From an uncultured Verrucomicrobia subdivision 3 bacterium (GTDB lineage Bacteria; Verrucomicrobiota; Verrucomicrobiia; Limisphaerales; UBA11358): 64,000 nucleotides of DNA. The translations under genes and the position numbers were made by a program. The notes beneath the pieces are model-generated. The model was not told where the DNA came from and ran no database searches. It saw only the letters and a list, made by a program, of their open reading frames with translations. The stretch spans positions 33,063 to 97,062 of the forward strand of contig CAIOIC010000080.1 of NCBI GenBank assembly GCA_903858275.1. The letters run 5' to 3'. Shown here piece after piece: positions 17,743 through 36,603 of the stretch. Position 1 is the stretch's first letter. Each line of letters opens with the position of its first letter.

Positions 17743-17743
17743 A

Positions 17744-23268: not shown

Positions 23269-23685
23269 CTATTGCAGGTGGAAAACTTCTTTCATATCGC
23301 TCCATATTTTGCTTTTCGCGGCAGCGGCAGGCAGCGGCGATTGACAGGGATCGGTTTCCTTCCACCAGGCTTGCGTAGCAGGATCAGCGGCCATCTGCTT
23401 CATGTCGGCTTCAAAATTGGTGCCAGTATATTCCAGATAGGCAAACAGGTAGAGCTTGCCGTCAATTTCACATTTGTTGATGGAGAAATTCTGGATGTGG
23501 ATTTCCTTGAGCGTCCGTTTAACTGACTGCCAGGGATACGCGTGTAATTCCTCGTAGCGCGCAGCTTTCTCCGGCTTGAGGCCGGTGACCCAGGCGTAGC
23601 GGGTGACGTGCGGTTGCGGAGTGGCGCAGCCAGACAAAACGACCAACGCCAACAATGGCAATGCATAGTTCAGTTTATTTTTCAT
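23269..23685 (-). CDS. L-rhamnose mutarotase (RhaM/DUF718)-like protein with lipoprotein signal peptide
   Basis: The block YAWVTGLKPEKAARYEELHAYPWQSV...IQNFSI...LFAYLEYTG...ATQAWW is RhaM-like. From the ATG at 23685 the N-terminus is MKNKLNYALPLLALVVLSGC, which contains a lipobox. Confidence 0.65.
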   Translation of the reverse strand: MKNKLNYALPLLALVVLSGCATPQPHVTRYAWVTGLKPEKAARYEELHAYPWQSVKRTLKEIHIQNFSINKCEIDGKLYLFAYLEYTGTNFEADMKQMAADPATQAWWKETDPCQSPLPAAAAKSKIWSDMKEVFHLQ

Positions 23686-23699
23686 GGGCTCAATCTGGT

Positions 23700-25565: not shown

Positions 25566-25585
25566 GGGAACGTCTTTGAGAAATA

Positions 25586-27493
25586 TTATTTGGCGGGATT
25601 TACGCGGCTTGGGATGGTGGGTGATGATTCCTTCACCGGCACAAGTTCCAATTGGCGCAGGCGAAATAATTCTTCGCCAGCCACTTCTTTCGCCGCCACC
25701 CGGAATTCATAGCGGCCGGGCGCCAATGTTACACGGCCCAGCGGTTCGTTCACTTTGATGCCAATCTTGACCGGCTTGGTGAAGGTTTGCGCGCCAAGGG
25801 TGACGGTGTAAATCCCCGCCGCACCGGAGCTGCCGCGCTGGAGTTCTTTTCCGGCGTCACCTTCGATCACGCGATTGCGCTTCAAGTCCGTCGGCGCGTC
25901 ATAAACCAGCGTCGCCTCAAAGGTGGCCGCCTCGTTCAACCGCACGGGCCATACGACGGCGTCGCTCGTTTTCTTCCAGTTGGTGACCCAGGCGTCTCTG
26001 GTTTTGCCGGCACCATACTGTAATTGCCCCTCCAATTTTGCATCAAAGCTGCGAAGCGTATCCGTCGCAACTGCCGGCGAAAGCAACCGGGTTGAATCCG
26101 CCTGTGGCGCATCTGCGCAATCGAGCACGATCACGGAATTGTTTTTGTCCGGTGCCGTCAGCGGCAACCCCTCGATGCTCGCATCGAGCGGGTTCAAGCG
26201 AACAACTTTCAATTTTCGGTCAGTCCGGTTGGCCTTATCCGCCAACAGCCAGGCCGCCTTCACCCCGGTTTTCAATCCGCCCACGACCAGCTTTCCGTCC
26301 TGCGGCCACTCAAAAACATGAAGATAGATCGTGTTGCCCTTGCGAGTGGTTTCGCCCCAGGCCGGGACCGGCAAAGGTGTGCGCGTTGTGCCGCGAATGG
26401 ATTCGCTGTTCACCTGCCACCACTGGCCGATGCCTTGCAGAATAGCCACGTCCTTTGGGTCCACCGCCCCGGTTCCCATCGGGCCGATGTTCATAAGAGT
26501 ATTGCCTCCGCGCGCCGCCGCCTTGGCCAGCAGCCGGATGAAATGGCCTGGCGGTTTGTGCGAAAGGTCGTTCTGATTGTAGCCGTAGGATTCATTCGTG
26601 GTCGGGATGCCTTCCCAATCGCCGTCCTTCGGCGGAAATTCGGCGGGCTTGTCCGCCGTGTTGCGGTAATCCGTCAACGAGACTAGGTCGGCTGAAGCGT
26701 CGGAAAAAATGCGCCCGTTGATTACGATATTCGGATTCGCGTTCCGCACAGCGGCGAAGATGCGGAGATTTTCCTCTGGAGGAAGTTTGTGCGGCGTATC
26801 GAACCACAGAATGTCGGGATTGTAGTTGCGGATGAGTTCGAGTATCTGCGGAATGGATTTTTCGTCCACATACTTCCGCGCTTTGGGGAGGAACTCGGGA
26901 AAGGTTTTCCACCAATCCGCGCCGTGGAGCAACTTGTCGCCGCCGGGATTTTGAAATTCCCAGTCGTTGCCCGGCCCGTTCTCCTCGCCCCAATCAAAGG
27001 CGTGCGAATAGTAAAAACCAAATTTGACGCCGTATTTCTTGCAGGCCGCACGTAATTCCTTCATCGGGTCGCGCCGAAACGGTGTCGCCTTGACGATATT
27101 GTGGTCGCTGACCTTAGAATCAAACATCGCAAAGCCATCGTGGTGCTTGGCGGTGATGATGAAGTAACCCATGCCCGTTTGCTGCGCGAGGCGAATCCAT
27201 TCGTCGGCGTTGAATTCGGTCGGATTAAATTTGCCGGCCACCTCCTTGAGATAGACTGGAATAGGGATCTTGGCCATGCGCTGAATATGTTCGGCATAAC
27301 CACCGTATGCTTTGCCCTGCCATGTCCCGCCCAGCCCGGAACTGACGCCCCAATGCACAAACATCCCGAACCTCGCCTCGCGCCACCAGGCTATGCGGGC
27401 GTCGCGTTGTGCGGACGTTTCAATAGGGGCAGCCGAGGCGGAGCAACCGGCAAGCACCAGCAATGCACAGCATACTTTCAGTAATGAATTCAT
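25586..27493 (-). CDS. Alpha-L-fucosidase, GH29, secreted, with C-terminal beta-sandwich extension
   Basis: Signal peptide present. GH29 blocks are WWREARFGMFVHWG, YFIITAKHHDGFAMFDS and ILWFD. Confidence 0.85.
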   Translation of the reverse strand: MNSLLKVCCALLVLAGCSASAAPIETSAQRDARIAWWREARFGMFVHWGVSSGLGGTWQGKAYGGYAEHIQRMAKIPIPVYLKEVAGKFNPTEFNADEWIRLAQQTGMGYFIITAKHHDGFAMFDSKVSDHNIVKATPFRRDPMKELRAACKKYGVKFGFYYSHAFDWGEENGPGNDWEFQNPGGDKLLHGADWWKTFPEFLPKARKYVDEKSIPQILELIRNYNPDILWFDTPHKLPPEENLRIFAAVRNANPNIVINGRIFSDASADLVSLTDYRNTADKPAEFPPKDGDWEGIPTTNESYGYNQNDLSHKPPGHFIRLLAKAAARGGNTLMNIGPMGTGAVDPKDVAILQGIGQWWQVNSESIRGTTRTPLPVPAWGETTRKGNTIYLHVFEWPQDGKLVVGGLKTGVKAAWLLADKANRTDRKLKVVRLNPLDASIEGLPLTAPDKNNSVIVLDCADAPQADSTRLLSPAVATDTLRSFDAKLEGQLQYGAGKTRDAWVTNWKKTSDAVVWPVRLNEAATFEATLVYDAPTDLKRNRVIEGDAGKELQRGSSGAAGIYTVTLGAQTFTKPVKIGIKVNEPLGRVTLAPGRYEFRVAAKEVAGEELFRLRQLELVPVKESSPTIPSRVNPAK

Positions 27494-27516
27494 GCGGGTT
27501 TAGTCCCGGTTGAAAC

Positions 27517-29190
27517 TCATTTCTCAATGAGTTCGATGTCGTTGATGGTCGGACCGTCCGTGGCGTCGAGAATATTGAGGCGGAATTCCTGCGCTTTAAC
27601 CGGCTGGTCGAACTTCTTTTGAAATCCCCAGCCAATCTTCTGGCCGGGGAAAATAGTCTTCCATTCAGCGCCGTCGCGGTATTGAAACTCAAACTTCTGC
27701 ACGCGCTCGCCCATGGCTTCCTCGATGCGCACACGCTCGATGGTCAGCGGCTTGCCTAGATTGGCGCTGATCCACGCCTGCTTCGTGCCACTATCCGTAG
27801 CCCAGCGGGTGTGAGGGTCGTTGTCAAACGCCTGCTGAGGTCCGTATTGATCATTATTCTTTTGGAAGACGTTTGAGGCCGTGCCTTTGATTTCGGAAGC
27901 GAGAGAAATGGCGGGCAAATCCATCGCCGAGCCGTCCAATTCGAGTCGGAGGATGGTGTCAATGGGGTCAATCGCGGCTTTGTCGAACGCCAGCCGAAGC
28001 TTGCCGTCGCGTTGCTCGTATTTGACCGCGCCACCGACCAGCAGCGACACCTTCGCCACCTTGCGGGACAAGGCGGGCAATTCCACCGCGCCGTCATCCT
28101 CCCGCAGCAAATGCAAATACACAGTGCTGCCCTTGCGTGTGCTCGCTACGGCAGGTGTCGGTTTCCACGGGCCGCCGCGGGTGCCATAGATGCTTTCGCC
28201 GTTCTTCGCGAGCCATGCGCCCATTTCTTTCAACCGCTCCACCTGTCGCGCCTCGATGAGGCCATCCGCCGTCGGGCCGACGTTGAACAGCAGATTACCG
28301 TCGCCGCCGGCACAGGTGACGAGCGTCTGCAAACATTGCTTGAGCGACTTCATGTCGTCATCCGGCTTCCATGACCATTGCCGGCAGATGGTCATGCAGG
28401 TTTCCCACGGGCGGTCGCCTTGATACTTGCCCACGCGTTGCTCGGGGGTGTCGTAATCACCGCCGTCGCCGGTGCGGTTGTTGATGAGAATGTCCGGCTG
28501 AAGTTCGCGGACCATTTTAATGGTCGCAGCCCCGCGCCCTTTGAATTCCTGCGGCACGTCGTTCCAGATGGTGAGCAACGGACCGTAATTCGTGATGAGT
28601 TCGCGGATCTGCGCGAGCAGGAAACGCTGGTAGGAATCAATGTCCGACTTCTCGCGGCGAACCTTGCCGCCCGGACTGGTGAGCGGAAAATCCGGATGAT
28701 GCCAGTCGCAGGTGGAGTAATATGTCCCGAGCGCAATGCCCTGTCGCTTGCACGCGGCGGCGAGTTCCTTGAGCACGTCGCGCTTGAATGGCGTGTTCAT
28801 GATGTTGTAGTCGGTCAGCTTCGTGTCCCAGAGGCAGAAGCCGTCATGGTGTTTCGTTGTCAGCACGATGTATTTCATGCCAGCGGCCTTGGCGACGCTC
28901 ACCCACTCGTCGGCGTTGTAGTTCGCCGGGTTGAATTGCTTGTAGAGGTTGTCATAAACCTCGATCGGGGTTTCCTTGCCGCGGGACCAGCCAATCTCCT
29001 TGCCTGTGATACTCACCGGCCCCCAGTGGATGAACATGCCGAAACGCATATCCTGCCAGCGCGCCACAGCCGCCGGGTCTGCCTTGGGCCAGGCTGGAGC
29101 GGCAGTGGCGTTGGTGGATTGAGCTCGGATCGCGCTGGTTGATAATGTCAGCGCACAAGCAAGCAGGCCGTTGCAAAAGGAATTTTTCAT
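27517..29190 (-). CDS. Alpha-L-fucosidase, GH29, secreted, with C-terminal F5/8 type C (discoidin) domain
   Basis: GH29 blocks are WQDMRFGMFIHWGP and YIVLTTKHHDGFCLWDT. The C-terminal AFDNDPHTRWAT...INDIEL is discoidin-like. Confidence 0.85.
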   Translation of the reverse strand: MKNSFCNGLLACALTLSTSAIRAQSTNATAAPAWPKADPAAVARWQDMRFGMFIHWGPVSITGKEIGWSRGKETPIEVYDNLYKQFNPANYNADEWVSVAKAAGMKYIVLTTKHHDGFCLWDTKLTDYNIMNTPFKRDVLKELAAACKRQGIALGTYYSTCDWHHPDFPLTSPGGKVRREKSDIDSYQRFLLAQIRELITNYGPLLTIWNDVPQEFKGRGAATIKMVRELQPDILINNRTGDGGDYDTPEQRVGKYQGDRPWETCMTICRQWSWKPDDDMKSLKQCLQTLVTCAGGDGNLLFNVGPTADGLIEARQVERLKEMGAWLAKNGESIYGTRGGPWKPTPAVASTRKGSTVYLHLLREDDGAVELPALSRKVAKVSLLVGGAVKYEQRDGKLRLAFDKAAIDPIDTILRLELDGSAMDLPAISLASEIKGTASNVFQKNNDQYGPQQAFDNDPHTRWATDSGTKQAWISANLGKPLTIERVRIEEAMGERVQKFEFQYRDGAEWKTIFPGQKIGWGFQKKFDQPVKAQEFRLNILDATDGPTINDIELIEK

Positions 29191-29265: not shown

Positions 29266-30279
29266 ATGCCAGCGTCCGTCGCACCCATTTATAAAACCCA
29301 GAAATCACGGTTTGAGGTTGACTCCTGCGCGCCGCAGTCGGCCGCCGTGCGCGGCGGCAAGATTCAAATGCACGCGCTTTCAAAGGGCCATTATCCCGGT
29401 GTTTTATTGCAGCCCGACCAGTTGCCCGGCATCGCCAGCATCGGTTATTGGAATGGCGCTAGCGCCCAGGACTGGGGGCTGGAGGCCCATCGCAATGAAG
29501 GCATTGAAATTACTTTCCTCGAAACCGGCGCGATGGCTTTCGCCGTCGAAGCGAAGAAATTTGAACTTCGCTCCGGTCATTTCACCATCACGCGTCCCTG
29601 GCAGTTGCACCGGCTTGGCGCCCCCAACATCGGACCGGGAAGGCTGCACTGGCTCATTTTGGATGTGGGGGTGCGTCGACCAAATCAAAACTGGTGCTGG
29701 CCGGACTGGGTGACGCTGACCAATCATGATCGGATGGAACTGACTCACAAGCTGCGGCACAACGAAAATCCAGTCTGGAATTCCTCGCCGGAAATCTGCG
29801 CCGCTTTTCGCGGCCTGTCCGACGGAGTGGGCAGATGGCCGCAGCCGCACATGGAATCGCGAATGCTGGTATTGTTGAACCAGCTTTTGCTGGGCATCCT
29901 GACGGCACTCACCGCCCAGCAGCAACACCAGAATCCGGAACTGACCTCCCGGCGGCGCACCGTGGAACTTTTCCTACGCGATCTTTCAGAAAACGCCGCC
30001 AGTACCCGCGAGCCTTGGACGCTGGACAAAATGGCTGGTCATTGCGGCATGGGCATCACGGCCTTCTCAAAATATTGCCGCGAACTGGTGAACAATGGCC
30101 CGGTTGAATATCTGAATCAATGCCGCCTAAACCGGGCCGCCAGCCAGCTGAAGAAAAACACGGTTCAGTCCGTGACCGAAATTGCGTTCCAAAACGGCTT
30201 CAACTCCAGCCAGTATTTTGCCACTGTCTTTGCCAAACGCTTTGGGGTCACTCCGACGGGTTATCGTTCAAAATGCTAA
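29266..30279 (+). CDS. AraC family transcriptional regulator (cupin-like N-domain)
   Basis: C-terminal HTH pair (ITAFSKYCRELVN ... VTEIAFQNGFNSSQYFATVF). It is divergent from the fucosidase operon. Its 3' end overlaps the convergent methyltransferase gene by 4 nt. Confidence 0.85.
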   Translation: MPASVAPIYKTQKSRFEVDSCAPQSAAVRGGKIQMHALSKGHYPGVLLQPDQLPGIASIGYWNGASAQDWGLEAHRNEGIEITFLETGAMAFAVEAKKFELRSGHFTITRPWQLHRLGAPNIGPGRLHWLILDVGVRRPNQNWCWPDWVTLTNHDRMELTHKLRHNENPVWNSSPEICAAFRGLSDGVGRWPQPHMESRMLVLLNQLLLGILTALTAQQQHQNPELTSRRRTVELFLRDLSENAASTREPWTLDKMAGHCGMGITAFSKYCRELVNNGPVEYLNQCRLNRAASQLKKNTVQSVTEIAFQNGFNSSQYFATVFAKRFGVTPTGYRSKC

Positions 30280-31184
30280 ACCGGCGCTTTGATGTTTTTG
30301 ACCGCACGGCTCATGGCGGTGAGCAGGGCGGGCGTGGTGCCGCAGCAACCGCCGATGATGCGCACGCCAGCGGCGAGCAGGCGCGTGGCCGTGGCGGCCA
30401 TTTCTTCCGGTGTGGCTTTGTAGATCGTTTTGCCATTTTCCATGTGCGGTGAACCGGCGTTGGGCTGCACGATCACCGGCGTCTTGCCGGCGGCGGCAAC
30501 GAGTTGTCCGGCCAGTTTTACATAATCGTCCAGGCTCAAGTCCGTGCCGCAATTGGTGCCGACAATGTCGGCCCCGGCGGCGATGGCGCGGCGCATGGCG
30601 TCGGCGGCGTTGGTGCCCATCATCGTGCGGAATTCGTCGCCAGTTTTCTGAAAGGAGTAGGTGACGATGACTGGGATTTTGGGGTTGCAAGCCTTGGCCG
30701 CTTCCACCCCCACGATGGCCTCGGCGGGGTCGCTCATGGTTTCCACGAGGATGGCATCCGCGCCGCCTTCAAGTAGCGCGGCAATTTGCATCTGAAACGC
30801 CTCGCGCAATTCATCCGCCGTGACATCGCCAACGGGCTCGAGAAAATCGCCGAATGGTCCGACGTCACCGAGCACCCATCCGTGGTCACCGGCGGCGGCT
30901 CTCGCCACGCGGGCGGCGGCTCGGTTTAGTTCCGCCACCCGAGCTTCCAAGCCATGCAGTGTGAGCGCAAACCGTGTGCCGCCAAAAGAATTGGTGGTGA
31001 TGAGGTCGCAGCCGGCGTTGCGGTAGGCGAGGTGAATGCCGCCGACATCGCCGGGGCGGTCGAGGTTCCAGGTCATGCCGCATGCGCCGCTGACGAGGCC
31101 ACGGGCCATGAGTTGCGTGCCCATGGCGCCGTCGCAGACGAGCGGACGCTTGACGAGTTCTTCGAGCAGTGGGGTTTTGTTCAT
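30276..31184 (-). CDS. Stand-alone homocysteine S-methyltransferase domain protein (MetH Hcy-binding-domain-like)
   Basis: 302 aa. LVCDGAMGTQL, GTNCGT and the C-terminal IIGGCCGTTP match the zinc-thiolate Hcy-binding domain of MetH/BHMT-type enzymes. Confidence 0.8.
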   Translation of the reverse strand: MNKTPLLEELVKRPLVCDGAMGTQLMARGLVSGACGMTWNLDRPGDVGGIHLAYRNAGCDLITTNSFGGTRFALTLHGLEARVAELNRAAARVARAAAGDHGWVLGDVGPFGDFLEPVGDVTADELREAFQMQIAALLEGGADAILVETMSDPAEAIVGVEAAKACNPKIPVIVTYSFQKTGDEFRTMMGTNAADAMRRAIAAGADIVGTNCGTDLSLDDYVKLAGQLVAAAGKTPVIVQPNAGSPHMENGKTIYKATPEEMAATATRLLAAGVRIIGGCCGTTPALLTAMSRAVKNIKAPV

Positions 31185-31196
31185 GAGTTTTGTGGT

Positions 31197-32033
31197 TTAG
31201 TCGAAAATCACGGTGCGATTCCCGCAGAGGAAAACGCGGTCTTCAAACACCATTCGCAGCGCGCGGGCGAGCACCATTTGCTCCACATCGTGTCCGGCCT
31301 GCGAAAGATCCTGCGCGGTGTGCGTGTGATCCACCGGGATGACTTGCTGGACGATGATGGGGCCTTCATCCAGTTTCTCGGTGACGTAATGCGCGGTGGC
31401 GCCGATGACTTTGACGCCGCGATCAAACGCCTGTTGATAGGGCTTCGCGCCGATGAACGCCGGCAAAAAGGAGTGGTGAATGTTGATGATGCGCGCCGGA
31501 AAACGGCGGACAAATTCCGGCGTGAGCACGCGCATGTATTTCGCCAGCACGATATAATCCGGCTGAAGCGATTCGATGGTTTTTAGCAATTGCGCTTCAT
31601 GTGCCTCGCGGGTGAGGGATTCGTGGTTGATGAAATGAAACGGCAGGTCAAACCGGGTGACGAGCGTTTTCAGCACGGTGTGATTGCTGATAACGCCGAG
31701 CATTTGCGCGTTCAGTTCGCTGAAGGCATGGCGGATGAGGATGTCGCCCAGGCAATGATGCTCCTTGGAGGCAAGCACCACGATGCGTTTCGGTTTCAGA
31801 TTGGAAAGGCGGATGTTGGCGGTGGCGGGCAGGACCGCGCGAAGCTCGGCTTCGAGTTGTCCGGCCTTCACGGCGCCGTCAAATTCCGTGCGCATGAAAA
31901 AGCGCGCCGGGCCGCGATCCACAAATTCCTGGTTGCCGACGACGTTGACGCCGTGTTTGAGCAGCACGCCGGTGATGGTGTGAACGAGGCCGCGGCGGTC
32001 CTCGCATTCCACGAGCAGGACTTGGGTGCTCAT
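31197..32033 (-). CDS. purU: Formyltetrahydrofolate deformylase
   Basis: 278 aa. An N-terminal ACT-like domain (LLVECEDRRGLVHTITGVL) is followed by a formyltransferase domain (YIVLAKYMRVL, IINIHHSFLPAF.GA.PY.QA). Confidence 0.85.
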   Translation of the reverse strand: MSTQVLLVECEDRRGLVHTITGVLLKHGVNVVGNQEFVDRGPARFFMRTEFDGAVKAGQLEAELRAVLPATANIRLSNLKPKRIVVLASKEHHCLGDILIRHAFSELNAQMLGVISNHTVLKTLVTRFDLPFHFINHESLTREAHEAQLLKTIESLQPDYIVLAKYMRVLTPEFVRRFPARIINIHHSFLPAFIGAKPYQQAFDRGVKVIGATAHYVTEKLDEGPIIVQQVIPVDHTHTAQDLSQAGHDVEQMVLARALRMVFEDRVFLCGNRTVIFD

Positions 32034-32186
32034 TGAGCTCCTCCGGAATTATTTTGGTTGAGGGAAATATTGTGGCGCATGTCTTTGAAGTTTCTACTCC
32101 TTGCCGCGTTGGGAAGCAATACCGTATGCGCCGAAAGCACCAAAGCACCAAAGAATCATCCCAGAATACAAGACCCTTCCGGTCTG

Positions 32187-32843
32187 ATGCGTTATGTTCA
32201 TGGCGCTATGAATATCGACCATCCCCTGACTCAAGCCATCATTGCCGGCCGCCGCAAAGACGTGCCGCAACTCGTGCAGCAATGCCTCGATGCCGGCGAA
32301 ACCGCCGGATCCATTGTGGAAAACCGTCTCGTGCCCGGCATGGCCGTCGTCGGCGAGAAGTTCAAGCGCAATGAAATATTCGTTCCGGAAATGCTCATTG
32401 CCGCCCGCGCCATGAAAGAGGCGTTGAAAATTCTGGAACCCAAGCTCGTGGCCGCCGGCATCAAGCCGGAGCATAACGCCGTGATCGGCACCGTCGAGGG
32501 CGATTTGCACGACATCGGCAAAAACCTGGTCGCCATGATGTGGAAGGGCGCCAACATCGAAGTGATTGACCTTGGGGTGAATGTTCCGGTGGCGAAATTT
32601 GTGGAAGCCGTCCGCCAGCACAAGCCCAAGCTGGTCGGCCTGTCGGCATTGCTCACCACGACGATGCCCGCCATGCGCGATACCGTCAAAGCCATCCGCG
32701 AAGCGGGGCTGCCGGTGAAAATTGTCGTCGGCGGCGCGCCGATCACGCTGGAATATGCCCGGGAAATCGGTGCGGATGGTTATTCACCGGACGCCGGCAG
32801 CGCGGTGGATGCCGCCATGGCGCTGGTGCAGTGCAAGGCTTGA
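32187..32843 (+). CDS. Corrinoid (cobalamin-binding) protein, MtaC/MtbC-like
   Basis: B12-binding motifs DLHDIGKN (DxHxxG), GLSALL (SxL) and VVGGAPIT (GG), preceded by a helical cap domain. The start is ambiguous: ATG at 32187 or 32208 gives the usual length of about 210 aa, while the ORF track begins at TTG 32058. Confidence 0.85.
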   Translation: MRYVHGAMNIDHPLTQAIIAGRRKDVPQLVQQCLDAGETAGSIVENRLVPGMAVVGEKFKRNEIFVPEMLIAARAMKEALKILEPKLVAAGIKPEHNAVIGTVEGDLHDIGKNLVAMMWKGANIEVIDLGVNVPVAKFVEAVRQHKPKLVGLSALLTTTMPAMRDTVKAIREAGLPVKIVVGGAPITLEYAREIGADGYSPDAGSAVDAAMALVQCKA

Positions 32844-32861
32844 GAGAATTGATTAGCTGAC

Positions 32862-33893
32862 ATGGATCGCCAATTTTACCTCGACCTGGCCGCATCCGGG
32901 TTAAGCATGCCCATCGGCACGCATCTGGTGCTGCACGAACATTCGGACCATGCGGCTATTGTGCAGGATGGCCAGCGTCTGGGTCGGGTGGTGGAAGAAT
33001 CAGCCCGTCGTTTCCGGATGCCCATGGCGTTCCCGCTCATGGATCTGAAGCTGGAAAAAGAAGCGCTCTTGCTCGCGCGCGGCGTTCCGGCGGCGGCGGT
33101 GGACAGCTACCATTTTTCTGAAATTCCAGAGAATGATGGCGAGTTCCGGCTTACAAAAAACATGGAAGCGGTGTGCGAGGCGATTCGTTATATCGCCAAC
33201 GAAACGGATTTGATTCCGGTCGGCATGGGCATCGGGCCGTTCTCGCTGATGACCAAACTGATTTCCGACCCCATCGCGCCGGTGTTCATGGCCGGAACGG
33301 GAGCCACCGGCGGAGACGAACCTGAAGTGGCCTTGGTGGAACGGCTGCTGGAACTAGGCTTTGCGACGATTAAAAACTATCTCGACGCCCAGATCGAGGC
33401 GGGTGCCAAAGCCATCATTCTGTGCGAACCGGCGGCCAATAAAGTGTATTTCTCGCCCAACCAACTCGCCGAGAATTACGATATTTTCGACCGCTATGTG
33501 ATGCGATTCAACCTGGCCATTCGCGAACAACTTCGTTTTCGCGGGGTGGATCTGATCTTTCACGATTGCGGTGAATTGCTCGATGGGATGGTGCACCGGT
33601 TTGCCACGCTGGATCCCGCCATGATCAGTTTGGGCAGTTCCCGGTTGCTCTGGGAGGATGCCAGGCTGCTGCCCAAGTCCACGGTGCTTTATGGAAACCT
33701 GCCGACGAAACAATTTTACTCCGATACCTTGGTGAGCGTCGAAAAGGTGCGGCAGCTTTCCGCCGACCTCACCCGCCGGATGCGCGCGGTCGGACATCCA
33801 TTCATCTTGGGCAGCGAATGCGACATCTTAAGCGTTCCCGGCAGCGAACAGACCATCAAAGCCAAGGTGGAAGCATTTTTGCAAACCAACTGA
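32862..33893 (+). CDS. MtaA/CmuA-type methyltransferase (URO-D fold, short class)
   Basis: 343 aa, with QIEAGAKAIILCEPAA, FHDCG and LGSECD (H-x-C...C pattern). It sits between the corrinoid protein gene and the mtaB-like gene. Confidence 0.7.
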   Translation: MDRQFYLDLAASGLSMPIGTHLVLHEHSDHAAIVQDGQRLGRVVEESARRFRMPMAFPLMDLKLEKEALLLARGVPAAAVDSYHFSEIPENDGEFRLTKNMEAVCEAIRYIANETDLIPVGMGIGPFSLMTKLISDPIAPVFMAGTGATGGDEPEVALVERLLELGFATIKNYLDAQIEAGAKAIILCEPAANKVYFSPNQLAENYDIFDRYVMRFNLAIREQLRFRGVDLIFHDCGELLDGMVHRFATLDPAMISLGSSRLLWEDARLLPKSTVLYGNLPTKQFYSDTLVSVEKVRQLSADLTRRMRAVGHPFILGSECDILSVPGSEQTIKAKVEAFLQTN

Positions 33894-33902
33894 CCGAATA
33901 TT

Positions 33903-35285
33903 ATGATGCACTATAAATCTCTCGCCATTTCCGACCCGTTGGAACTAACGTTCGGCCTCGCGCCCAAACCCGTGACTACAAAAAGTGGCATGGTGATTGG
34001 CGGTGGCACGGTCTATCCCGAACTGAATTTCACGCTGCCGCCAATGACGATTGACGCCGGCACAATGCCGGAGGTGCGGCGTAACTATGAGCAGATCATC
34101 GAAGGTGCGCTTCGCCGCGCGGCGGATCTGGAAGCGCCCGGTGTGGTCATCGAGTTTGAGACGCTGCCGCCGATGACCGAGCATCCGCAGTGGGGTTTGG
34201 ACATCGCGAAGATTTTGCTGGAAGGAATGCAGCGTGAGAAAGATCGCAGCGGCCTGAAAAGCGTGCTGCGCATGACGCCCAACGACAATCGCGAGTTCGA
34301 GCGTCCGCCGCTGATGCGGCGGGGTCGTTACTGGGAGGCGATGCTGGAATTGTTTGAAGGTTCCGCGGCGGCAGGTGCGGAGTTGTTGAGCATTGAATCC
34401 GTCGGCGGCAAGGAATTGCACGACGAGGCGCTGGTCAACGGCGACTTGCCCGCGAGCATTTTTTCGCTCTGCATCCTGGGCGAACGTGATATGCGTTTTC
34501 TGTGGACGCATCTCCAGAAGATTGCCGACCGGCATGGCGTGAAATGCGCCGGCGACACCGCCTGCGGCTTCGGCAACACCGCGATGGTTCTGGCGGAACA
34601 GAAAATGATTCCACGCGTGTTTGCCGCCGTGGTGCGTGCGGTCACTGCGGTGCGATCGCTCGTTGCTTATGAGTGCGGCGCAGTCGGGCCGGGCAAGGAT
34701 TGCGGCTACGAGAACCCCATTCTCAAGGCCATCACCGGTTTTCCGATGGCGATGGAAGGCAAGACTTCGGCTTGCGCGCACTTGAGCCCGATGGGCAATC
34801 TTGCCGCCGCTTGCTGCGATACCTGGTCCAACGAATCTGTCCAAAACATCAAGCTGCTCGGCGGCATGGCCCCGACGTGTTACATGGAGCAGCTCGCCTA
34901 TGACTGTCGTCTGATGAATACGGCTCGCAGTCACGGCAAGGCTTCCGCTCAACAGCTTCAGCGCTGGCTGGTTGAGTCCGACGTGGCGACCGATCCTCAG
35001 GCGTTTATTATTTCGCCCGAATCTTCCGTCGCACTGGCAAAAACCATTGTGGCTTGCGATTCACATTATCACGCTGGCGTGGCGGCGGCGCGCAAAGCGG
35101 TGGAACTGCTGCGTAATGCACATGACCAGGGGAAAGTGCGAATTGCGCCCAACGAAGTCATCTGGTTCGACACCTTGCAAGACGCGCTGGATGAATTGCC
35201 GGAAAGTGAATCGGAATTCATCGGTCAGCAACTCGCGTTGGCGGACCGTTCCAAGTTTTTACCGGCGGAATACGGTTTGGAATGA
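33903..35285 (+). CDS. mtaB: MtaB-like methanol:corrinoid methyltransferase homologue
   Basis: 460 aa, the same length class as Methanosarcina MtaB. Long runs align from memory with M. barkeri MtaB: SLVAYECGAVGPGKDCGYENPILKAITGFPMAMEGKTSACAH and CCDTWSNESV. The segments carrying the Glu/Cys/Cys zinc ligands are present (SIESVGGKE, GDTACGFGN, GKDCGYEN). Confidence 0.8.
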   Translation: MMHYKSLAISDPLELTFGLAPKPVTTKSGMVIGGGTVYPELNFTLPPMTIDAGTMPEVRRNYEQIIEGALRRAADLEAPGVVIEFETLPPMTEHPQWGLDIAKILLEGMQREKDRSGLKSVLRMTPNDNREFERPPLMRRGRYWEAMLELFEGSAAAGAELLSIESVGGKELHDEALVNGDLPASIFSLCILGERDMRFLWTHLQKIADRHGVKCAGDTACGFGNTAMVLAEQKMIPRVFAAVVRAVTAVRSLVAYECGAVGPGKDCGYENPILKAITGFPMAMEGKTSACAHLSPMGNLAAACCDTWSNESVQNIKLLGGMAPTCYMEQLAYDCRLMNTARSHGKASAQQLQRWLVESDVATDPQAFIISPESSVALAKTIVACDSHYHAGVAAARKAVELLRNAHDQGKVRIAPNEVIWFDTLQDALDELPESESEFIGQQLALADRSKFLPAEYGLE

Positions 35286-35331
35286 TAATTTGACGGTCAA
35301 TTATTTGATTTATGATAGTTAGATTCATTTT

Positions 35332-36603
35332 ATGAAGCCCCAGTCCATGAACAGTCGACAGCGCGTGCGCGCCGCGCTTGAACACCGGCAGCCGGATTGC
35401 GTGCCGATGGATTTTGGCTCCACCGCCGTAACCGGGATGCACGTCACCTGCGTTGCTGGTCTGCGGAAACATTACGGTCTGCCGGAACATCCGGTGACGG
35501 TAATCGAGCCGTATCAGATGCTGGGAGTAGTCGAACCTGATTTGTGCGATGCCCTGGGCGTAGACACCACCAATGTGTTGCCGCCGGCCAACATGTTCGG
35601 TTTTCGTAACGAACGCTGGAAACCATGGCGCGCGCCGTGGGGACAGGAACTAATGGTGCCGGGAGATTTTATCACCACCCCGGCTCCCGATGGCGGATTG
35701 CATATTTATCCGGGCGGCGACACCAGTGTTTCCGCCAGCGGTCATCTGCCGGCCACGGGTTACTTCTTCGACACGATCATCCGGCAGGAGCCGATTGACG
35801 AAGATAATTTGAAAGTGGAGGACAATCTCGAGGAGTTTGCCCGGTTTCCTGAAAGCGATGTGGCCTATTTTCGCGAGGCGGCGCAAGCGGCGGCCGGCAA
35901 AGGCAAAGCGGTTATTGCCACCATCGGCGGCACGGCGTTTGGCGACATCGCGCTGGTGCCGGGACCGTTTATGAAACGGCCCCGGGGCATACGCGACGTG
36001 GAAGAATGGTATGTGGCCATTTCCGAGCGGCCGGAATTCGTGCGGGCCATTTTTGAAAAGCAGTGTGAAATCGCCCTGGCGAATCTGGCGAAAGTGGCGG
36101 CGTCGACGGGCGACAACATTGATGTCGTGTTTCTGTGCGGCACGGATTTTGGCACCCAGATTTCACAGTTCTGTTCGGTGAAAACCTTTCGCGAAGTTTA
36201 CCAGCCTTACTACCGGGCTGTGAACGACTGGATTCACAAAAACACGAAATGGAAAACCTTGAAGCACACTTGTGGGGCGGTGCGGCCGCTGATTCCGGAA
36301 CTGATTGCGGCCGGATTTGATGCGCTAAATCCCGTGCAATGTTCGGCCACCGGCATGGAACCCGCGGGGTTGAAAAAAGATTTCGGCGATCAAATCACGT
36401 TCTGGGGCGGTGGTGTTGACACGCAAAAGACGTTGCCTTTTGGAACTCCGGCACAGGTGCGCGAGGAGGTTTTATGCCGCTGTGAAATCTTTTCGCCCGG
36501 CGGCGGATTTGTTTTCGACTCCATCCACAATCTGCAAGCCCGCACACCGGTGGTCAATCTGGTGGCAATGTTTGAAGCGGTGCGGGAGTTCAACGCGCGT
36601 TGA
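35332..36603 (+). CDS. URO-D family methyltransferase, long class (paralogue of 20981..22219)
   Basis: 423 aa, with MNSRQRVRAALEHRQPDCVPMD, KHTCG and FWGGGVDT...PGGGFVFDSIHNL. It is collinear with the 412-aa paralogue over its full length by eye. Confidence 0.75.
   Translation: MKPQSMNSRQRVRAALEHRQPDCVPMDFGSTAVTGMHVTCVAGLRKHYGLPEHPVTVIEPYQMLGVVEPDLCDALGVDTTNVLPPANMFGFRNERWKPWRAPWGQELMVPGDFITTPAPDGGLHIYPGGDTSVSASGHLPATGYFFDTIIRQEPIDEDNLKVEDNLEEFARFPESDVAYFREAAQAAAGKGKAVIATIGGTAFGDIALVPGPFMKRPRGIRDVEEWYVAISERPEFVRAIFEKQCEIALANLAKVAASTGDNIDVVFLCGTDFGTQISQFCSVKTFREVYQPYYRAVNDWIHKNTKWKTLKHTCGAVRPLIPELIAAGFDALNPVQCSATGMEPAGLKKDFGDQITFWGGGVDTQKTLPFGTPAQVREEVLCRCEIFSPGGGFVFDSIHNLQARTPVVNLVAMFEAVREFNAR

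What the first reader, a model, noticed from the sequence alone, without database searches (positions are those of the whole stretch)
32058..36603. Mta-like corrinoid methyltransferase cassette (corrinoid protein, MtaA-type, MtaB-like, long URO-D) in a glycan-degrader chromosome
Seen in sequence: four adjacent plus-strand genes.
- A B12-binding protein with DxHxxG, SxL and GG motifs.
- A URO-D-fold protein with an HDCG...SEC zinc-type pattern.
- A 460-aa protein that I can align from memory over long runs with Methanosarcina barkeri MtaB. The three segments that hold its Glu/Cys/Cys zinc ligands are present (SIESVGGKE, GDTACGFGN, GKDCGYEN).
- A 423-aa URO-D paralogue.

Established knowledge: MtaB/MtaC/MtaA is the methanol-activating system of methanogens and some acetogens, which are strict anaerobes.

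Inference: here the cassette shares a chromosome segment with O2-dependent enzymes (a P450 and a di-iron oxygenase), LPS genes and many secreted CAZymes. That is not the classical host type. Methanol is released from methyl-esterified or methyl-etherified plant and algal glycans. The cassette may therefore capture glycan-derived methyl groups or methanol.
Basis: partly seen in the sequence, partly recalled or inferred. Interest (0 to 1): 0.85.

Follow-up and report, generated by a model that had tools for sequence, protein, structure and literature searches.

The report
Methanol–corrinoid methyl-transfer hub in Verrucomicrobia
A sugar-degrading lake or soil bacterium carries a genuine relative of the methanogens' methanol-activating enzyme. 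It sits in a vitamin-B12 methyl-shuttling system embedded in sugar-uptake operons, so it probably handles methanol or methyl groups stripped from plant and algal sugars, though no experiment has shown this.

Summary
The four plus-strand genes are real and form a tight operon.
- 33903-35285 is an unambiguous MtaB-family protein: Pfam 544 bits full length, Glu165/Cys221/Cys267 matching the M. barkeri zinc ligands, and a model that superposes on 2I2X_A at TM 0.95.
- It belongs to a tight, PVC-centred clade (64-100% identity). It is 51% identical to an acetogen MtaB and 39% to the archaeal one.
- The cassette is one piece of a split, modular corrinoid system. Its other parts lie at 12195-23229 and 30276-32033: a RACo/RamA-type activase, DUF1638, a MetH-type homocysteine-binding protein, PurU and two more URO-D paralogues.
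- This accessory set matches the split methionine synthase/MtgBCDE hub of aerobic Rhodobacterales, so "strict anaerobes only" is outdated.
- The URO-D genes sit in sugar-uptake operons next to O2-dependent oxygenases, one of them 48% identical to the 6-O-methyl-galactose P450 demethylase.
- No pterin-binding (THF) methyltransferase is nearby.

Best reading (0.5): a hub that moves methyl groups between methanol or O-methyl sugars and homocysteine, and perhaps THF. Direction and substrates are inferred, not shown. Bacterial mtaB has been noted in metagenome surveys, but I found no description of this architecture. Verdict: new variant of a known kind.

The parts
32208..32843 (+). Corrinoid (B12-binding) protein, about 211 aa. 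Alternative start 32187.
   Evidence: Pfam B12-binding_2 plus B12-binding. Best PDB match is 1y80_A at 176 bits, against archaeal MtaC 2i2x_B at 99.6 bits. Homologue alignments start at 32208. It lies adjacent to MtaB in 59/80 related loci.
32862..33893 (+). Short, divergent URO-D-superfamily methyltransferase ('UROD_343') with an H234-x-C236...C320 metal motif.
   Evidence: Pfam URO-D 54.5 bits. Motif conserved in 11/11 orthologues. No PDB sequence match. All 5 loci with a full +-10 kb flank that carry it also carry the homocysteine-binding gene.
33903..35285 (+). MtaB-family methanol:corrinoid methyltransferase, PVC clade. Zinc ligands E165, C221, C267.
35332..36603 (+). Long URO-D-superfamily methyltransferase ('UROD_423') with a beta-rich insertion. 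Invariant H312-x-C314 and H399.
   Evidence: Pfam URO-D 44.7 bits over the C-terminal half. Invariant residues from a 26-sequence alignment. Model pLDDT 83.8; best fold matches are MtaA 4ay7 and UroD. In all 9 MtaB-centred loci and all 7 of the UROD_423-centred loci that hold a sugar-porter match, this URO-D type is also within 10 kb.
31197..32033 (-). PurU, formyltetrahydrofolate deformylase. Divergent from the cassette and co-directional with the homocysteine-binding gene (12 nt gap).
   Evidence: NCBIfam TIGR00655 367.8 bits, above the 285.95 cut-off. Same arrangement in L004.
30276..31184 (-). Stand-alone homocysteine-binding methyltransferase domain (MetH N-terminal type, comparable to MtgE). 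Zinc cysteines C212, C280, C281.
   Evidence: Pfam S-methyl_trans 226.8 bits. PDB MetH Hcy domains score 153-158 bits, against HMT 67 and BHMT 51. Cysteines conserved in 29 homologues. Found within 10 kb of MtaB in 19/80 loci.
29266..30279 (+). AraC-family regulator with a cupin-type sensor domain.
   Evidence: Pfam HTH_18, HTH_AraC, Cupin_2.
12195..13616 (+). Sugar-porter-family MFS transporter, XylE-like. The public gene call starts at 12222.
   Evidence: TIGR00879 380.6 bits, above the 237.8 cut-off; XylE model 468.8 bits. In 7 Verrucomicrobiota loci the copy is 68-82% identical (L013, five Opitutaceae loci, L046); the two Acidobacteria-labelled loci hold only 39-40% relatives. A UROD_423-type gene is within 10 kb in all of them.
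13613..14764 (+). Cytochrome P450 of the carbohydrate O-demethylase type (P450ZoGa-like). Its start overlaps the transporter gene by 4 nt.
   Evidence: PDB 6g5o_A 368 bits, full length, 48% identity. Sugar-binding residues E62, R66 and Q70 are conserved; V58 and F73 are not. Heme motif FGFGAHLCLG.
14778..15776 (+). Short URO-D methyltransferase ('UROD_332'), the most MtaA-like gene of the window. H235-x-C237...C315.
   Evidence: Pfam URO-D 192.6 bits full length. PDB MtaA 4ay7 73.7 bits with HxC and C aligned. TIGR01463 156.7 bits.
15819..17742 (+). GFO/IDH/MocA oxidoreductase (15819-16901) and xylose-isomerase-like TIM-barrel protein (16921-17742). These are sugar or cyclitol-modifying enzymes in the same operon.
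17735..18511 (+). DUF1638 protein (public call 17777-18511).
   Evidence: Pfam DUF1638 124 bits. Genetically required with the split methionine synthase in Phaeobacter (PMC5764234). Present in 33/80 MtaB loci.
18484..20148 (+). RACo/RamA-type ATP-dependent reductive activase of corrinoid proteins: 2Fe-2S domain, middle domain and ASKHA domain. Public call 18508-20148.
   Evidence: Pfam RACo_C_ter 234 bits, Raco_middle 154 bits, Fer2 26 bits. NCBIfam AcsV 334 bits and RamA 113 bits, both below their cut-offs.
20145..20873 (+). AraC-family regulator of the type that directly precedes corrinoid protein-MtaB in other genomes.
   Evidence: Pfam HTH_18/HTH_AraC. Present in 38/80 MtaB loci, usually immediately upstream of the corrinoid protein gene.
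20981..22219 (-). Second long URO-D methyltransferase ('UROD_412'), a 35% identical paralogue of 35332-36603. Last gene of a fucosidase/transport operon.
   Evidence: Pfam URO-D 87.9 bits. BLASTP between paralogues. Operon structure.
22219..23229 (-). FA_hydroxylase-superfamily membrane di-iron oxygenase, overlapping the start of UROD_412 by 1 nt.
   Evidence: Pfam PF04116 77.3 bits. Public gene call.
23269..29190 (-). RhaM-family mutarotase (23269-23685), SSF sodium:solute symporter (23700-25565) and two GH29 alpha-L-fucosidases (25586-27493, 27517-29190). These form the upstream part of the same minus-strand operon.

Best explanation
The cassette is one arm of a modular, corrinoid-dependent methyl-transfer hub.

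Proposed mechanism:
1. A small corrinoid protein (32208-32843) is kept in the Co(I) state by a RACo/RamA-type ATP-dependent activase and DUF1638 (17735-20148).
2. It is loaded or unloaded by interchangeable methyltransferase modules.
3. MtaB (33903-35285) is the methanol module. Its zinc (E165/C221/C267) polarises the C-O bond of methanol so that Co(I) takes the methyl group. The reaction is reversible in principle.
4. The long URO-D proteins (35332-36603 and 20981-22219) are proposed substrate-specific modules for imported O-methylated sugars.
5. The MetH-type homocysteine-binding protein (30276-31184) passes the methyl group from methyl-Co(III) to homocysteine, giving methionine.
6. The short MtaA-like URO-D proteins (32862-33893 and 14778-15776) are further methyl-Co(III)-using or -forming modules with a zinc-activated partner that is not yet known.
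7. PurU suggests that some one-carbon units end in the THF pool and leave as formate.

Status of each step:
- Shown: family membership and intact catalytic residues of MtaB, the corrinoid protein, the Hcy domain and the activase; operon structure; conserved co-occurrence across about 130 loci.
- Inferred: which module loads and which unloads, methyl sugars as donors, and the direction of the MtaB step in vivo.
For: MtaB identity:
- Pfam 544 bits; PDB 2i2x_A 317 bits.
- Zinc ligands conserved in the window and in all 22 clade members sampled from the related loci.
- Model superposes on 2I2X_A at TM 0.95, rmsd 1.5 A.
- 51% identity to Eubacterium maltosivorans MtaB.

Hub architecture:
- Within +-10 kb of 80 PVC-clade MtaB genes: corrinoid protein 59, AraC 38, DUF1638 33, RACo 31, Hcy domain 19, long or short URO-D in 27/42 full-length loci.
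- Recurrent operons such as CorrP-MtaB-UROD343-HcyMT-DUF1638-RACo (L040, L042, L074, L077).
- UROD_423-centred loci show the same corrinoid protein, RACo, DUF1638 and UROD_332 set mostly without MtaB (MtaB in 5/49). MtaB and long URO-D are therefore alternative modules.
- The same accessory set (corrinoid protein, PF02574 protein, RamA-like activase, DUF1638) is genetically proven for the split methionine synthase/MtgBCDE of aerobic Rhodobacterales (PMC5764234 and PMC12478193).
- The Hcy protein is MetH-like, not BHMT- or HMT-like.

Sugar link:
- All 9 MtaB-centred loci with a sugar-porter match also have a UROD_423-type gene within 10 kb; in 7 of them the transporter is 68-82% identical to the window's.
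- The window has three tight operons joining transporters and fucosidases to URO-D genes.
- Each URO-D outside the cassette abuts an O2-dependent oxygenase. One is a P450 48% identical to the 6-O-methyl-galactose demethylase, with its sugar-binding E/R/Q residues. The other is an FA_hydroxylase.
- In 10 other loci a FA_desaturase-Rieske-FNR fusion lies within 10 kb of MtaB, in most of them inside the gene cluster itself.
- GH115 (alpha-(4-O-methyl)glucuronidase), GH10 and GH120 lie in the same window.
- URO-D-superfamily MT I enzymes are the known O-demethylases and dehalogenases of bacteria (PMC13222342).
Against: - There is no biochemical or expression evidence for this clade.
- No pterin-binding (THF) methyltransferase lies in the window or is conserved near the 80 loci. 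The high-flux sink needed for catabolic demethylation is therefore unidentified.
- 14/42 full-length MtaB loci have neither a URO-D nor an Hcy gene within 10 kb.
- The sugar-porter link holds in a minority of loci (9/42 and 7/49).
- About 20 peat loci carry the URO-D/corrinoid operon among housekeeping genes with no transporter.
- Three close homologues of the P450 sit in unrelated contexts.
- The FA_hydroxylase neighbour was not seen in other loci.
- The long URO-D proteins have no detectable sequence similarity to any solved or characterised enzyme.
Confidence: 0.5

Rival explanations
1. Plain methanol utilisation. MtaB and the corrinoid protein capture free methanol, for example methanol released by pectin methylesterases. 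A short MtaA-like URO-D and/or the Hcy protein pass the methyl group on to an acceptor for assimilation or oxidation. The sugar genes are neighbours only, and the long URO-D proteins are unrelated methyltransferases.
For: - Methanol is the only substrate known for the MtaB family, and the active-site segments are near-identical to M. barkeri.
- MtaB-corrinoid protein is the invariant core: 34/42 full loci. 14/42 have no URO-D or Hcy gene nearby.
- The corrinoid protein's best solved relative is 1y80. From memory, not checked here, this is the methanol-induced corrinoid protein of Moorella.
- Peat Acidobacteriota express mtaB in situ (PMC10805028).
Against: - There is no THF- or CoM-type MT II of a known kind. 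Equivalog scores for MtaA and MtaC are far below cut-off.
- Methanol needs no transporter, yet sugar transporters, AraC regulators and glycosidases recur in the loci.
- It does not explain the oxygenase-URO-D pairs.
Confidence: 0.2
2. Corrinoid-mediated methyl-ether hydrolysis. The long URO-D proteins take the methyl group from O-methyl sugars onto Co(I). MtaB then runs in reverse and discharges it to water as methanol. The sugar is freed without O2, THF or redox chemistry. The neighbouring oxygenases do the same job when O2 is present.
For: - No THF methyltransferase is nearby.
- MtaB and long URO-D share one corrinoid/activase set.
- Oxygenase-URO-D pairs lie in sugar operons.
- The window's own genome was assembled from a lake metagenome whose record name contains BUCK21. 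From memory, this is a data set of oxygen-stratified lakes.
- From memory, the MtaB half-reaction is only mildly exergonic, about -7 kJ/mol (Sauer and Thauer). It would therefore reverse at micromolar methanol.
Against: - No precedent for MtaB working in reverse in vivo.
- The Hcy-binding protein and PurU next to the cassette point to productive use of the methyl group.
- Many MtaB loci lack any URO-D, and most UROD_423 loci lack MtaB.
Confidence: 0.13
3. O-demethylation of methoxylated aromatic compounds (lignin or humic monomers). The URO-D proteins would act as MT I, as in acetogens and as inferred for peat bacteria. MtaB would be an additional methanol module.
For: - Characterised bacterial URO-D-superfamily MT I enzymes are aryl-O-demethylases and dehalogenases.
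- Many loci come from peat, humic lakes and soil.
- Stordalen Acidobacteriota express mtaB together with 'methoxy' mtxB genes.
Against: - The associated transporter is a bona fide sugar porter. It scores 381 bits on TIGR00879 against 118 bits on the aromatic-acid symporter model.
- The neighbours are fucosidases, a mutarotase, a sugar-type P450 and GFO/TIM sugar enzymes. No aromatic ring-cleavage genes were seen.
Confidence: 0.1
4. A housekeeping split methionine synthase. URO-D proteins would replace the pterin-binding domain as methyl-THF:corrinoid methyltransferases, and MtaB would be an accessory donor.
For: - The accessory set is identical to the Phaeobacter split MetH.
- Peat operons of the form DUF1638-UROD_332-RACo-CorrP-UROD_423(-HcyMT) sit among housekeeping genes.
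Against: - No URO-D-family enzyme is known to use methyl-THF. Bacterial THF MT II enzymes are pterin-binding.
- The Hcy gene is present in only 19/80 and 6/49 loci.
- Control by AraC regulators and placement in sugar operons is atypical for a housekeeping enzyme.
Confidence: 0.05

Closest known systems
MtaB-MtaC-MtaA methanol:coenzyme M methyltransferase of Methanosarcina (PDB 2I2X; MtaA 4AY7)
   Same: - MtaB fold, length and Glu/Cys/Cys zinc site (TM 0.95, 39% identity).
- A B12-binding_2 plus B12-binding corrinoid protein encoded next to it.
- URO-D-fold methyltransferases with an HxC...C motif in the system.
- An ATP-dependent reductive activase.
   Different: - Bacterial PVC clade, well separated from the archaeal clade in the tree.
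- The corrinoid protein and URO-D proteins score far below the MtaC/MtaA equivalog cut-offs.
- No CoM context.
- Extra modules: a Hcy-binding protein, DUF1638, long URO-D paralogues, sugar transporters and oxygenases.
Acetogen methanol system (MtaB, MtaC and a pterin-binding MtaA) of Eubacterium, Acetobacterium and Moorella
   Same: - Closest characterised-lineage MtaB: 51% identity to E. maltosivorans.
- The corrinoid protein's best solved relative is the Moorella protein 1Y80 (176 bits).
   Different: - No pterin-binding methyl-THF-forming MT II near the gene in the window or in 80 related loci.
- No Wood-Ljungdahl genes were seen in the window or among the conserved neighbours of the 80 loci; whole genomes were not examined.
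- Hosts are PVC glycan degraders, including an isolate of the freshwater genus Nibricoccus.
Split cobalamin methionine synthase / MtgBCDE hub of aerobic Rhodobacterales (Phaeobacter inhibens, Ruegeria pomeroyi)
   Same: - One small corrinoid protein serving several methyltransferase modules.
- A stand-alone PF02574 homocysteine-binding protein.
- A RamA-like (2Fe-2S plus DUF4445/RACo) activase.
- DUF1638.
- Operation outside strict anaerobes.
   Different: - The substrate modules are MtaB and URO-D proteins instead of MttB-superfamily MtgB.
- The bidirectional pterin-binding MtgD is not found locally.
- Different phylum, and embedded in sugar operons.
URO-D-superfamily MT I enzymes: aryl-O-demethylases (MtvB, OdmB, VdmB, MtoB) and halomethane enzymes (CdmB, CmuA)
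   Same: - URO-D-type TIM barrel with insertions in the N-terminal half.
- Encoded next to a corrinoid protein and an activase.
   Different: - No detectable sequence similarity was found to any solved member.
- The genomic partners are sugar transporters and glycosidases, not aromatic or halomethane pathways.
- The substrate is unknown.
P450ZoGa (PDB 6G5O/6G5Q), the 6-O-methyl-D-galactose oxidative demethylase of Zobellia and Formosa
   Same: - Window P450 13613-14764 is 48% identical over its full length.
- It keeps the heme cysteine motif and the sugar-hydroxyl-binding Glu62, Arg66 and Gln70.
   Different: - Val58 and Phe73, which line the methyl pocket, are replaced by Pro and Ile.
- No separate ferredoxin or ferredoxin-reductase genes lie next to it.
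- It is translationally coupled to a sugar porter and followed by a corrinoid-type methyltransferase.
- Close homologues elsewhere are not linked to corrinoid genes.

Membership tests
MtaB family (Pfam PF12176, methanol:corrinoid methyltransferase) | Full-length match to the family profile above the curated cut-off | tested here: met
   544.1 bits against a cut-off of 25; residues 3-458 on profile 3-460/460.
MtaB family (Pfam PF12176, methanol:corrinoid methyltransferase) | Zinc ligands Glu164/Cys220/Cys269 (M. barkeri numbering) | tested here: met
   E165/C221/C267 align to them. They are conserved in all 22 sampled clade members and invariant in alignment A2.
MtaB family (Pfam PF12176, methanol:corrinoid methyltransferase) | Same fold as the crystal structure 2I2X chain A | tested here: met
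   Model pLDDT 95.8. Foldseek TM 0.95/0.95, rmsd 1.5 A over 459 residues. It is the only hit with E<=0.001.
MtaB family (Pfam PF12176, methanol:corrinoid methyltransferase) | Methanol-dependent methylation of a Co(I) corrinoid | not testable with these tools
   Needs anaerobic enzyme assays.
Methanogen MtaB equivalog (NCBIfam NF040651) | Score at or above the equivalog cut-off | tested here: not met
   420.6 bits against a cut-off of 720. 39% identity to M. barkeri, and a separate clade in the tree.
Methanogen MtaABC system | Cognate MtaC corrinoid protein (equivalog) | tested here: not met
   MtaC models score 125.7-127.1 bits against cut-offs of 420-450. Better scores go to the MtgC/MtbC/pyl_corrinoid models, all of them also below cut-off.
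Methanogen MtaABC system | MtaA methylcobamide:CoM methyltransferase (equivalog) | tested here: not met
   NF040654 scores against a cut-off of 400: 32862-33893, 18.5 bits; 35332-36603, 33.1 bits; 14778-15776, 118.7 bits.
Acetogen-type methanol system | Pterin-binding (PF00809) methyl-corrinoid:THF methyltransferase encoded with mtaBC | tested here: not met
   No such domain was found in any window ORF scanned. No unlabelled gene cluster present in 4 or more of the 80 loci turned out to be one. A copy elsewhere in the genome cannot be excluded.
Split MetH / MtgBCDE-type corrinoid hub | Stand-alone B12-binding_2 plus B12-binding corrinoid protein with DxHxxG | tested here: met
Split MetH / MtgBCDE-type corrinoid hub | Stand-alone PF02574 homocysteine-binding protein with a Cys3 zinc site (MtgE) | tested here: met
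   226.8 bits. C212/C280/C281 conserved. Nearest solved relatives are MetH Hcy domains. Direct comparison with MtgE sequences was not done.
Split MetH / MtgBCDE-type corrinoid hub | RamA-like activase (2Fe-2S plus DUF4445/RACo ASKHA) and DUF1638 | tested here: met
   Window 18484-20148 and 17735-18511. They co-occur with MtaB in 31 and 33 of 80 loci.
Split MetH / MtgBCDE-type corrinoid hub | Pterin-binding MtgD and MttB-superfamily MtgB modules | tested here: not met
   Neither was found in the window or conserved in related loci. MtaB and URO-D proteins occupy the substrate-module position.
URO-D-superfamily corrinoid methyltransferases | URO-D/MtaA-type TIM-barrel fold | tested here: met
   Pfam URO-D for all four paralogues. 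The UROD_423 model's best matches are 4ay7 (E 7e-12) and UroD structures.
URO-D-superfamily corrinoid methyltransferases | Relationship to characterised O-demethylase MT I enzymes (MtvB, OdmB, VdmB, MtoB, CdmB) | not tested
No CdmB entry appeared among the PDB sequence or Foldseek matches.
Carbohydrate-demethylating P450 (P450ZoGa type) | Full-length similarity plus conserved sugar-coordinating residues | tested here: inconclusive
   368 bits and 48% identity. E62/R66/Q70 are conserved, but V58 becomes P and F73 becomes I. No adjacent ferredoxin or reductase genes. Substrate untested.

The most novel reading that the evidence does not exclude
The long URO-D proteins are the first corrinoid-dependent, O2-independent demethylases of O-methylated sugars. 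Candidate substrates are 4-O-methyl-glucuronate, and methyl-fucose or methyl-rhamnose. MtaB regenerates Co(I) by discharging the methyl group to water as methanol, so the net reaction is hydrolysis of a sugar methyl ether. The neighbouring P450 and di-iron oxygenases are the oxic alternative. PVC glycan degraders would then be a source of methanol, not only a sink, in anoxic peat and lake water.
Probability: 0.13. Interest if true: 0.9.

Novelty: new variant of a known kind. Interest (0 to 1): 0.62.

Why it matters
Methyl ethers on sugars block catabolism. The only route I know of for removing them is O2-dependent P450 chemistry, and I know of no established anoxic route. Methanol turnover in peat, soils and stratified lakes feeds methylotrophic methanogenesis, and in metagenomes mtaB is counted as a marker of anaerobic methylotrophy.

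This clade shows that many such mtaB genes belong to PVC and Acidobacteria-type glycan degraders. There they are wired to a MetH-like homocysteine module, a RamA/DUF1638 activation pair, URO-D methyltransferases, sugar transporters and oxygenases.

If the hub links methanol or methyl sugars to methionine or one-carbon metabolism, three things follow:
- Environmental mtaB counts would need to be read differently.
- The known scope of B12-dependent chemistry outside strict anaerobes would widen.
- Candidate enzymes for anoxic sugar demethylation would be in hand.

At least one isolate with a complete genome (Nibricoccus sp. IMCC34717) makes this testable.

Tried and rejected
- Riboswitch or other RNA control: the Rfam scan of the whole window found only a tRNA at 36670-36742. 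The promoter/terminator scan was uninformative.
- Pterin-binding THF methyltransferase: searched for by Pfam over nearly all large window ORFs and by unbiased clustering of neighbours in 80 + 80 loci. None was found.
- General P450-corrinoid linkage: three close P450 homologues on long contigs lie in unrelated contexts. The link holds only for the window, L051 and L106.
- FA_hydroxylase next to URO-D elsewhere: no match in 160 loci.
- Sequence or profile search of the long and short divergent URO-D proteins against the PDB: nothing significant.
- ORF 22210-23526 (+), with no Pfam hit, is a spurious antisense ORF over the FA_hydroxylase gene.
- My recollection that E. limosum MtqA is URO-D-like was wrong. 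Bacterial THF MT II enzymes are pterin-binding.
- Literature searches (9 queries) found no paper describing this PVC clade or corrinoid-dependent sugar demethylation. They found only metagenome surveys noting bacterial mtaB.
- My crude ORF caller produced antisense clusters over MtaB and the corrinoid gene; these were discarded.

Full report
**1. Observation**

The four plus-strand ORFs reported at 32058-36603 are present. They are separated by 18, 9 and 46 nt, so they form a tight operon.

- Pfam assigns B12-binding_2 plus B12-binding to the first gene, URO-D to the second (54.5 bits) and fourth (44.7 bits, C-terminal half only), and MtaB to the third. The MtaB score is 544 bits over the whole protein and the whole profile.
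- The MtaB-like protein aligns end to end with M. barkeri MtaB (PDB 2i2x_A, 317 bits).
- I rebuilt the M. barkeri sequence from that alignment. Its VESMGG, GDTDCAQ and GKDCGYE segments start at residues 163, 216 and 266. That places Glu164, Cys220 and Cys269 opposite Glu165, Cys221 and Cys267 of the window protein. The identity of these three as the zinc ligands is taken from the 2I2X paper, from memory.
- An AlphaFold model built on 25 sequences has pLDDT 95.8. It superposes on 2I2X_A at TM 0.95 and rmsd 1.5 A, and no other PDB chain matches at E<=0.001.
Two corrections apply. The corrinoid gene starts at 32208 or 32187, because homologues align only from 32208 and are about 211 aa. And 'MtaA-type' is a loose label for 32862-33893.

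**2. Which MtaB**

- The protein scores below the methanogen equivalog cut-off: 420.6 against 720.
- It is 39% identical to M. barkeri MtaB, 51% to Eubacterium maltosivorans MtaB and 53% to a Chthonomonadales protein.
- A search of 5.8 billion proteins gave 6598 relatives at E<=1e-10. The best 120 are all 86-100% identical, and where named they are Verrucomicrobia subdivision 3 or Limisphaerales.
- Across one genome per species, 157 relatives were found. The best 80 (64-95% identity) are almost all Verrucomicrobiota: Limisphaerales, Opitutales, Chthoniobacterales, Puniceicoccaceae, Verrucomicrobiaceae and Kiritimatiellia.
- Some are Planctomycetota (Phycisphaerae, Tepidisphaerales), and a few are MAGs labelled Acidobacteriaceae or Armatimonadetes. 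One comes from the complete genome of an isolate, Nibricoccus sp. IMCC34717.
- In a neighbour-joining tree these form one tight clade. It groups with the other bacterial MtaBs (Chthonomonadales-type and Eubacterium-type) and is remote from the archaeal clade. Its branching does not follow taxonomy, which suggests lateral spread or mis-binning.
- All three zinc ligands are kept in every clade member sampled from the related loci.
- The family is small: 700 representatives at 50% clustering with E<=0.001.

**3. The cassette is only part of the system**

I ran tblastn of 23 window proteins against the 80 loci. Within 10 kb of MtaB the counts were:

| Neighbour | Loci (of 80) |
|---|---|
| Corrinoid protein | 59 |
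| AraC regulator of the 20145-20873 type | 38 |
| DUF1638 | 33 |
| RACo-type activase | 31 |
| PF02574 homocysteine-binding protein | 19 |
| Long URO-D, 423 type | 19 |
| Short URO-D, 332 type | 15 |
| Short URO-D, 343 type | 11 |
| Sugar-porter MFS of the 12195-13616 type | 9 |

- Among the 42 loci with full flanks, 34 have the corrinoid protein, 27 some URO-D and 14 the Hcy protein. Fourteen have neither a URO-D nor the Hcy protein.
- Recurrent operons include CorrP-MtaB-UROD343-HcyMT-DUF1638-RACo (Chthoniobacterales) and UROD423-sugar porter-DUF1638-(oxygenase)-RACo-CorrP-MtaB-UROD332 (Opitutaceae).
- In the window these genes are spread over three tight operons:
  1. 12195-20873: sugar porter, P450, UROD_332, GFO/IDH/MocA oxidoreductase, TIM-barrel protein, DUF1638, RACo, AraC.
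  2. 29190-20981 on the minus strand: two GH29 fucosidases, SSF symporter, RhaM mutarotase, FA_hydroxylase, UROD_412.
  3. The cassette itself, divergent from purU and the Hcy-binding gene.
- A reciprocal scan centred on the long URO-D found 321 relatives in metagenomes. Of 49 loci of at least 6 kb, 32 had the corrinoid protein, 26 RACo, 24 DUF1638 and 24 UROD_332, but only 5 had MtaB.
- About 20 peat contigs carry DUF1638-UROD_332-RACo-CorrP-UROD_423 without MtaB. MtaB and the long URO-D are therefore alternative modules on the same corrinoid and activase core.

**4. What the parts are**

- *Homocysteine-binding protein.* It has the Cys212/Cys280/Cys281 zinc triad conserved in 29 homologues. 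It is closest to the Hcy domains of MetH (153-158 bits), much closer than to SAM/SMM-dependent HMT (67 bits) or BHMT (51 bits). This fits a methylcobalamin-dependent partner.
- *Activase.* It has the 2Fe-2S, middle and ASKHA domains of RACo.
- *Corrinoid protein.* It is nearest to the Moorella protein 1Y80 (176 bits) and less close to archaeal MtaC (99.6 bits).
- *URO-D paralogues.* The four fall into two unrelated-looking groups.
  - Short, MtaA-like forms (332 and 343; 24% identical). They carry HxC...C. The 332 form aligns with MtaA 4AY7, including the metal ligands.
  - Long forms (412 and 423; 35% identical). They carry an invariant HxC and a UroD-like C-terminal GGGFVFxSIHN motif.
- The model of the 423-aa form (pLDDT 83.8) is an MtaA/UroD barrel with a beta-rich insertion near residues 79-140.

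**5. Comparison with known systems**

- Price et al. (PMC5764234) showed by fitness genetics that Phaeobacter makes methionine with a split enzyme: a PF02574 protein, a pterin-binding protein and a corrinoid protein. This enzyme needs a RamA-like protein and a DUF1638 protein.
- Mausz et al. (PMC12478193) showed in aerobic Ruegeria that the same corrinoid protein also serves glycine-betaine demethylation by MtgB.
- The window shares that accessory set exactly, but it has MtaB and URO-D proteins as substrate modules.
- The Cmu chloromethane system is a further aerobic precedent.
- The same 2026 paper places the characterised bacterial O-demethylase and dehalogenase MT I enzymes in the UroD superfamily. 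It places bacterial THF-forming MT II enzymes, including bacterial MtaA and MtqA, in the pterin-binding family.
- No pterin-binding gene is present in the window, and none is conserved near the 160 loci. The THF link rests only on PurU, which is next to the Hcy gene here and in L004.

**6. Link to glycans**

- The MFS transporter is a true sugar porter: TIGR00879 381 bits and the XylE model 469 bits, against 118 bits on the aromatic-acid symporter model.
- All nine MtaB-centred loci that hold a match to it also hold a UROD_423-type gene within 10 kb. In seven of these the transporter is 68-82% identical to the window's; the two Acidobacteria-labelled loci carry only a 39-40% relative.
- The P450 translationally coupled to the transporter is 48% identical, full length, to P450ZoGa (6G5O/6G5Q), the 6-O-methyl-D-galactose demethylase. 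It keeps Glu62, Arg66 and Gln70, which bind the sugar hydroxyls, but not Val58 and Phe73.
- UROD_412 ends a fucosidase-symporter-mutarotase operon and overlaps a di-iron FA_hydroxylase gene.
- In ten other loci a FA_desaturase-Rieske-FNR fusion lies within 10 kb of MtaB. In most of them it sits inside the gene cluster itself, between the URO-D or DUF1638 genes and RACo or AraC.
- L106 combines P450, UROD_332, DUF1638, RACo, AraC, that fusion, UROD_423 and the sugar porter.
- The window also encodes GH10, GH120 plus CBM6, GH115 (which releases 4-O-methyl-glucuronate from xylan), UxaC and UxuA.
- The repeated pairing of an O2-dependent oxygenase with a corrinoid-type methyltransferase in sugar-uptake operons is the main support for methyl sugars as substrates. 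It also suggests oxic and anoxic alternatives.
- Caveats:
  - The sugar-porter link is a minority pattern.
  - Three close P450 homologues lie in unrelated contexts.
  - The FA_hydroxylase pairing was not seen elsewhere.
  - The peat operons sit among housekeeping genes.

**7. Mechanism and rivals**

- *Best-supported reading (about 0.5).* This is a modular corrinoid hub. MtaB exchanges methyl groups with methanol. The long URO-D proteins load methyl groups from imported O-methyl sugars. The MetH-type protein unloads to homocysteine. The short URO-D proteins serve a further zinc-activated partner. An unidentified route leads to THF and formate.
- *Rivals.*
  - Plain methanol capture, with the sugar genes incidental (0.2).
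  - MtaB running backwards, so that the system hydrolyses sugar methyl ethers to methanol (0.13). This is the most novel reading.
  - Methoxy-aromatic O-demethylation, as inferred for peat bacteria (0.1).
  - A housekeeping split methionine synthase (0.05).
- None can be settled without enzyme assays or physiology.

**8. Novelty**

- Public annotations already call these proteins 'methanol--corrinoid methyltransferase'.
- Surveys have counted bacterial mtaB in many phyla and seen Acidobacteriota express it. They read it as anaerobic methylotrophy (PMC10805028, PMC11264602).
- I found no description of three things: the PVC clade itself, its MetH/RamA/DUF1638-type wiring, or any corrinoid-dependent sugar demethylation.
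- I therefore rate it a new variant of a known kind, with moderately high interest.
- The window's own genome was assembled from a lake metagenome (ENA ERZ18631664, record name BUCK21-1...). From memory, this is a data set of oxygen-stratified lakes.

Noticed in passing
window 53879-62709: Hexuronate and glucuronoxylan cluster: UxuA, RraA-like aldolase, MFS_1 transporter, SDR, GH39/42-like protein, GH115 alpha-(4-O-methyl)glucuronidase (59255-61486) and UxaC. It supplies a concrete candidate methyl sugar, 4-O-methyl-glucuronate. That sugar must be demethylated before it can enter the isomerase pathway.
   Followed up: partly
window 13613-14764: The cytochrome P450 is 48% identical over its full length to the 6-O-methyl-D-galactose demethylase P450ZoGa. 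This P450 clade is 74-100% conserved among its 120 best database relatives; the few that carry names are Verrucomicrobiota, Opitutaceae and Chthoniobacteraceae. Three homologues on long contigs lie in unrelated neighbourhoods, so its usual substrate and partners are unknown.
   Followed up: partly
L002, L021, L027, L032, L036, L038, L039, L041, L057, L064 and L106: A large fusion protein (median about 830 aa) combining a FA_desaturase-type di-iron domain, a Rieske 2Fe-2S domain and an FAD/NAD reductase lies within 10 kb of MtaB in 10 of 80 loci. In most of them it sits inside the corrinoid methyltransferase gene cluster. It is absent from the window. It is an O2-dependent enzyme in a 'B12 methyltransferase' operon and remains unexplained.
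   Followed up: partly
L002, L003, L008, L012, L019, L022, L025, L048, L067: A DUF6580 protein of about 196 aa lies next to or close to MtaB in nine loci, most often directly downstream of it. Function unknown. It is not in the window.
   Followed up: no
L117-L141 and about 14 peat loci in total, directly after the UROD_423 homologue: An FmdE-domain protein with a DksA/TraR-type zinc finger follows the long URO-D gene. It lies in a MtaB-less operon, DUF1638-UROD_332-RACo-CorrP-UROD_423, which is set among housekeeping genes (der, ispF, rhomboid).
   Followed up: no
window 22210-23526 (+) versus 22219-23229 (-): The 438-aa plus-strand ORF with no Pfam hit is an antisense artefact. The real gene is the minus-strand FA_hydroxylase, followed by a RhaM-family mutarotase at 23269-23685.
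   Followed up: yes
window 32058-32207: The longest ORF for the corrinoid protein adds 43-50 codons that look like a signal peptide (MSLKFLLLAALGSNTVCA). Homologues lack this stretch, so it is probably non-coding divergent-promoter DNA shared with purU.
   Followed up: partly
window 36670-36742 (-): A tRNA gene (Rfam, 75.6 bits) lies 67 nt downstream of the cassette. It overlaps the last 10 nt (the stop-codon end) of the rpoD ORF. It was the only Rfam match in the window; there is no cobalamin or SAM riboswitch.
   Followed up: no
L008, L015, L016 (labelled Acidobacteriaceae/Acidobacteriota); L062 (labelled Bifidobacterium); L065 (labelled Bacillota): MtaB genes 83-88% (L008, L015, L016) or 68% (L062, L065) identical to the verrucomicrobial one occur in MAGs assigned to other phyla. 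L008, L015 and L016 nest among the Limisphaerales-type sequences in the tree; L062 and L065 fall elsewhere in the clade. This reflects either recent lateral transfer or mis-binning, and it matters for surveys that attribute mtaB expression to Acidobacteriota.
   Followed up: no
window 6421-8565: A 714-aa protein has a C-terminal FGE-sulfatase (formylglycine-generating enzyme-like) domain. It lies between GH10 and a PF12876 cellulase-like gene. The role of the large N-terminal part is unknown.
   Followed up: no
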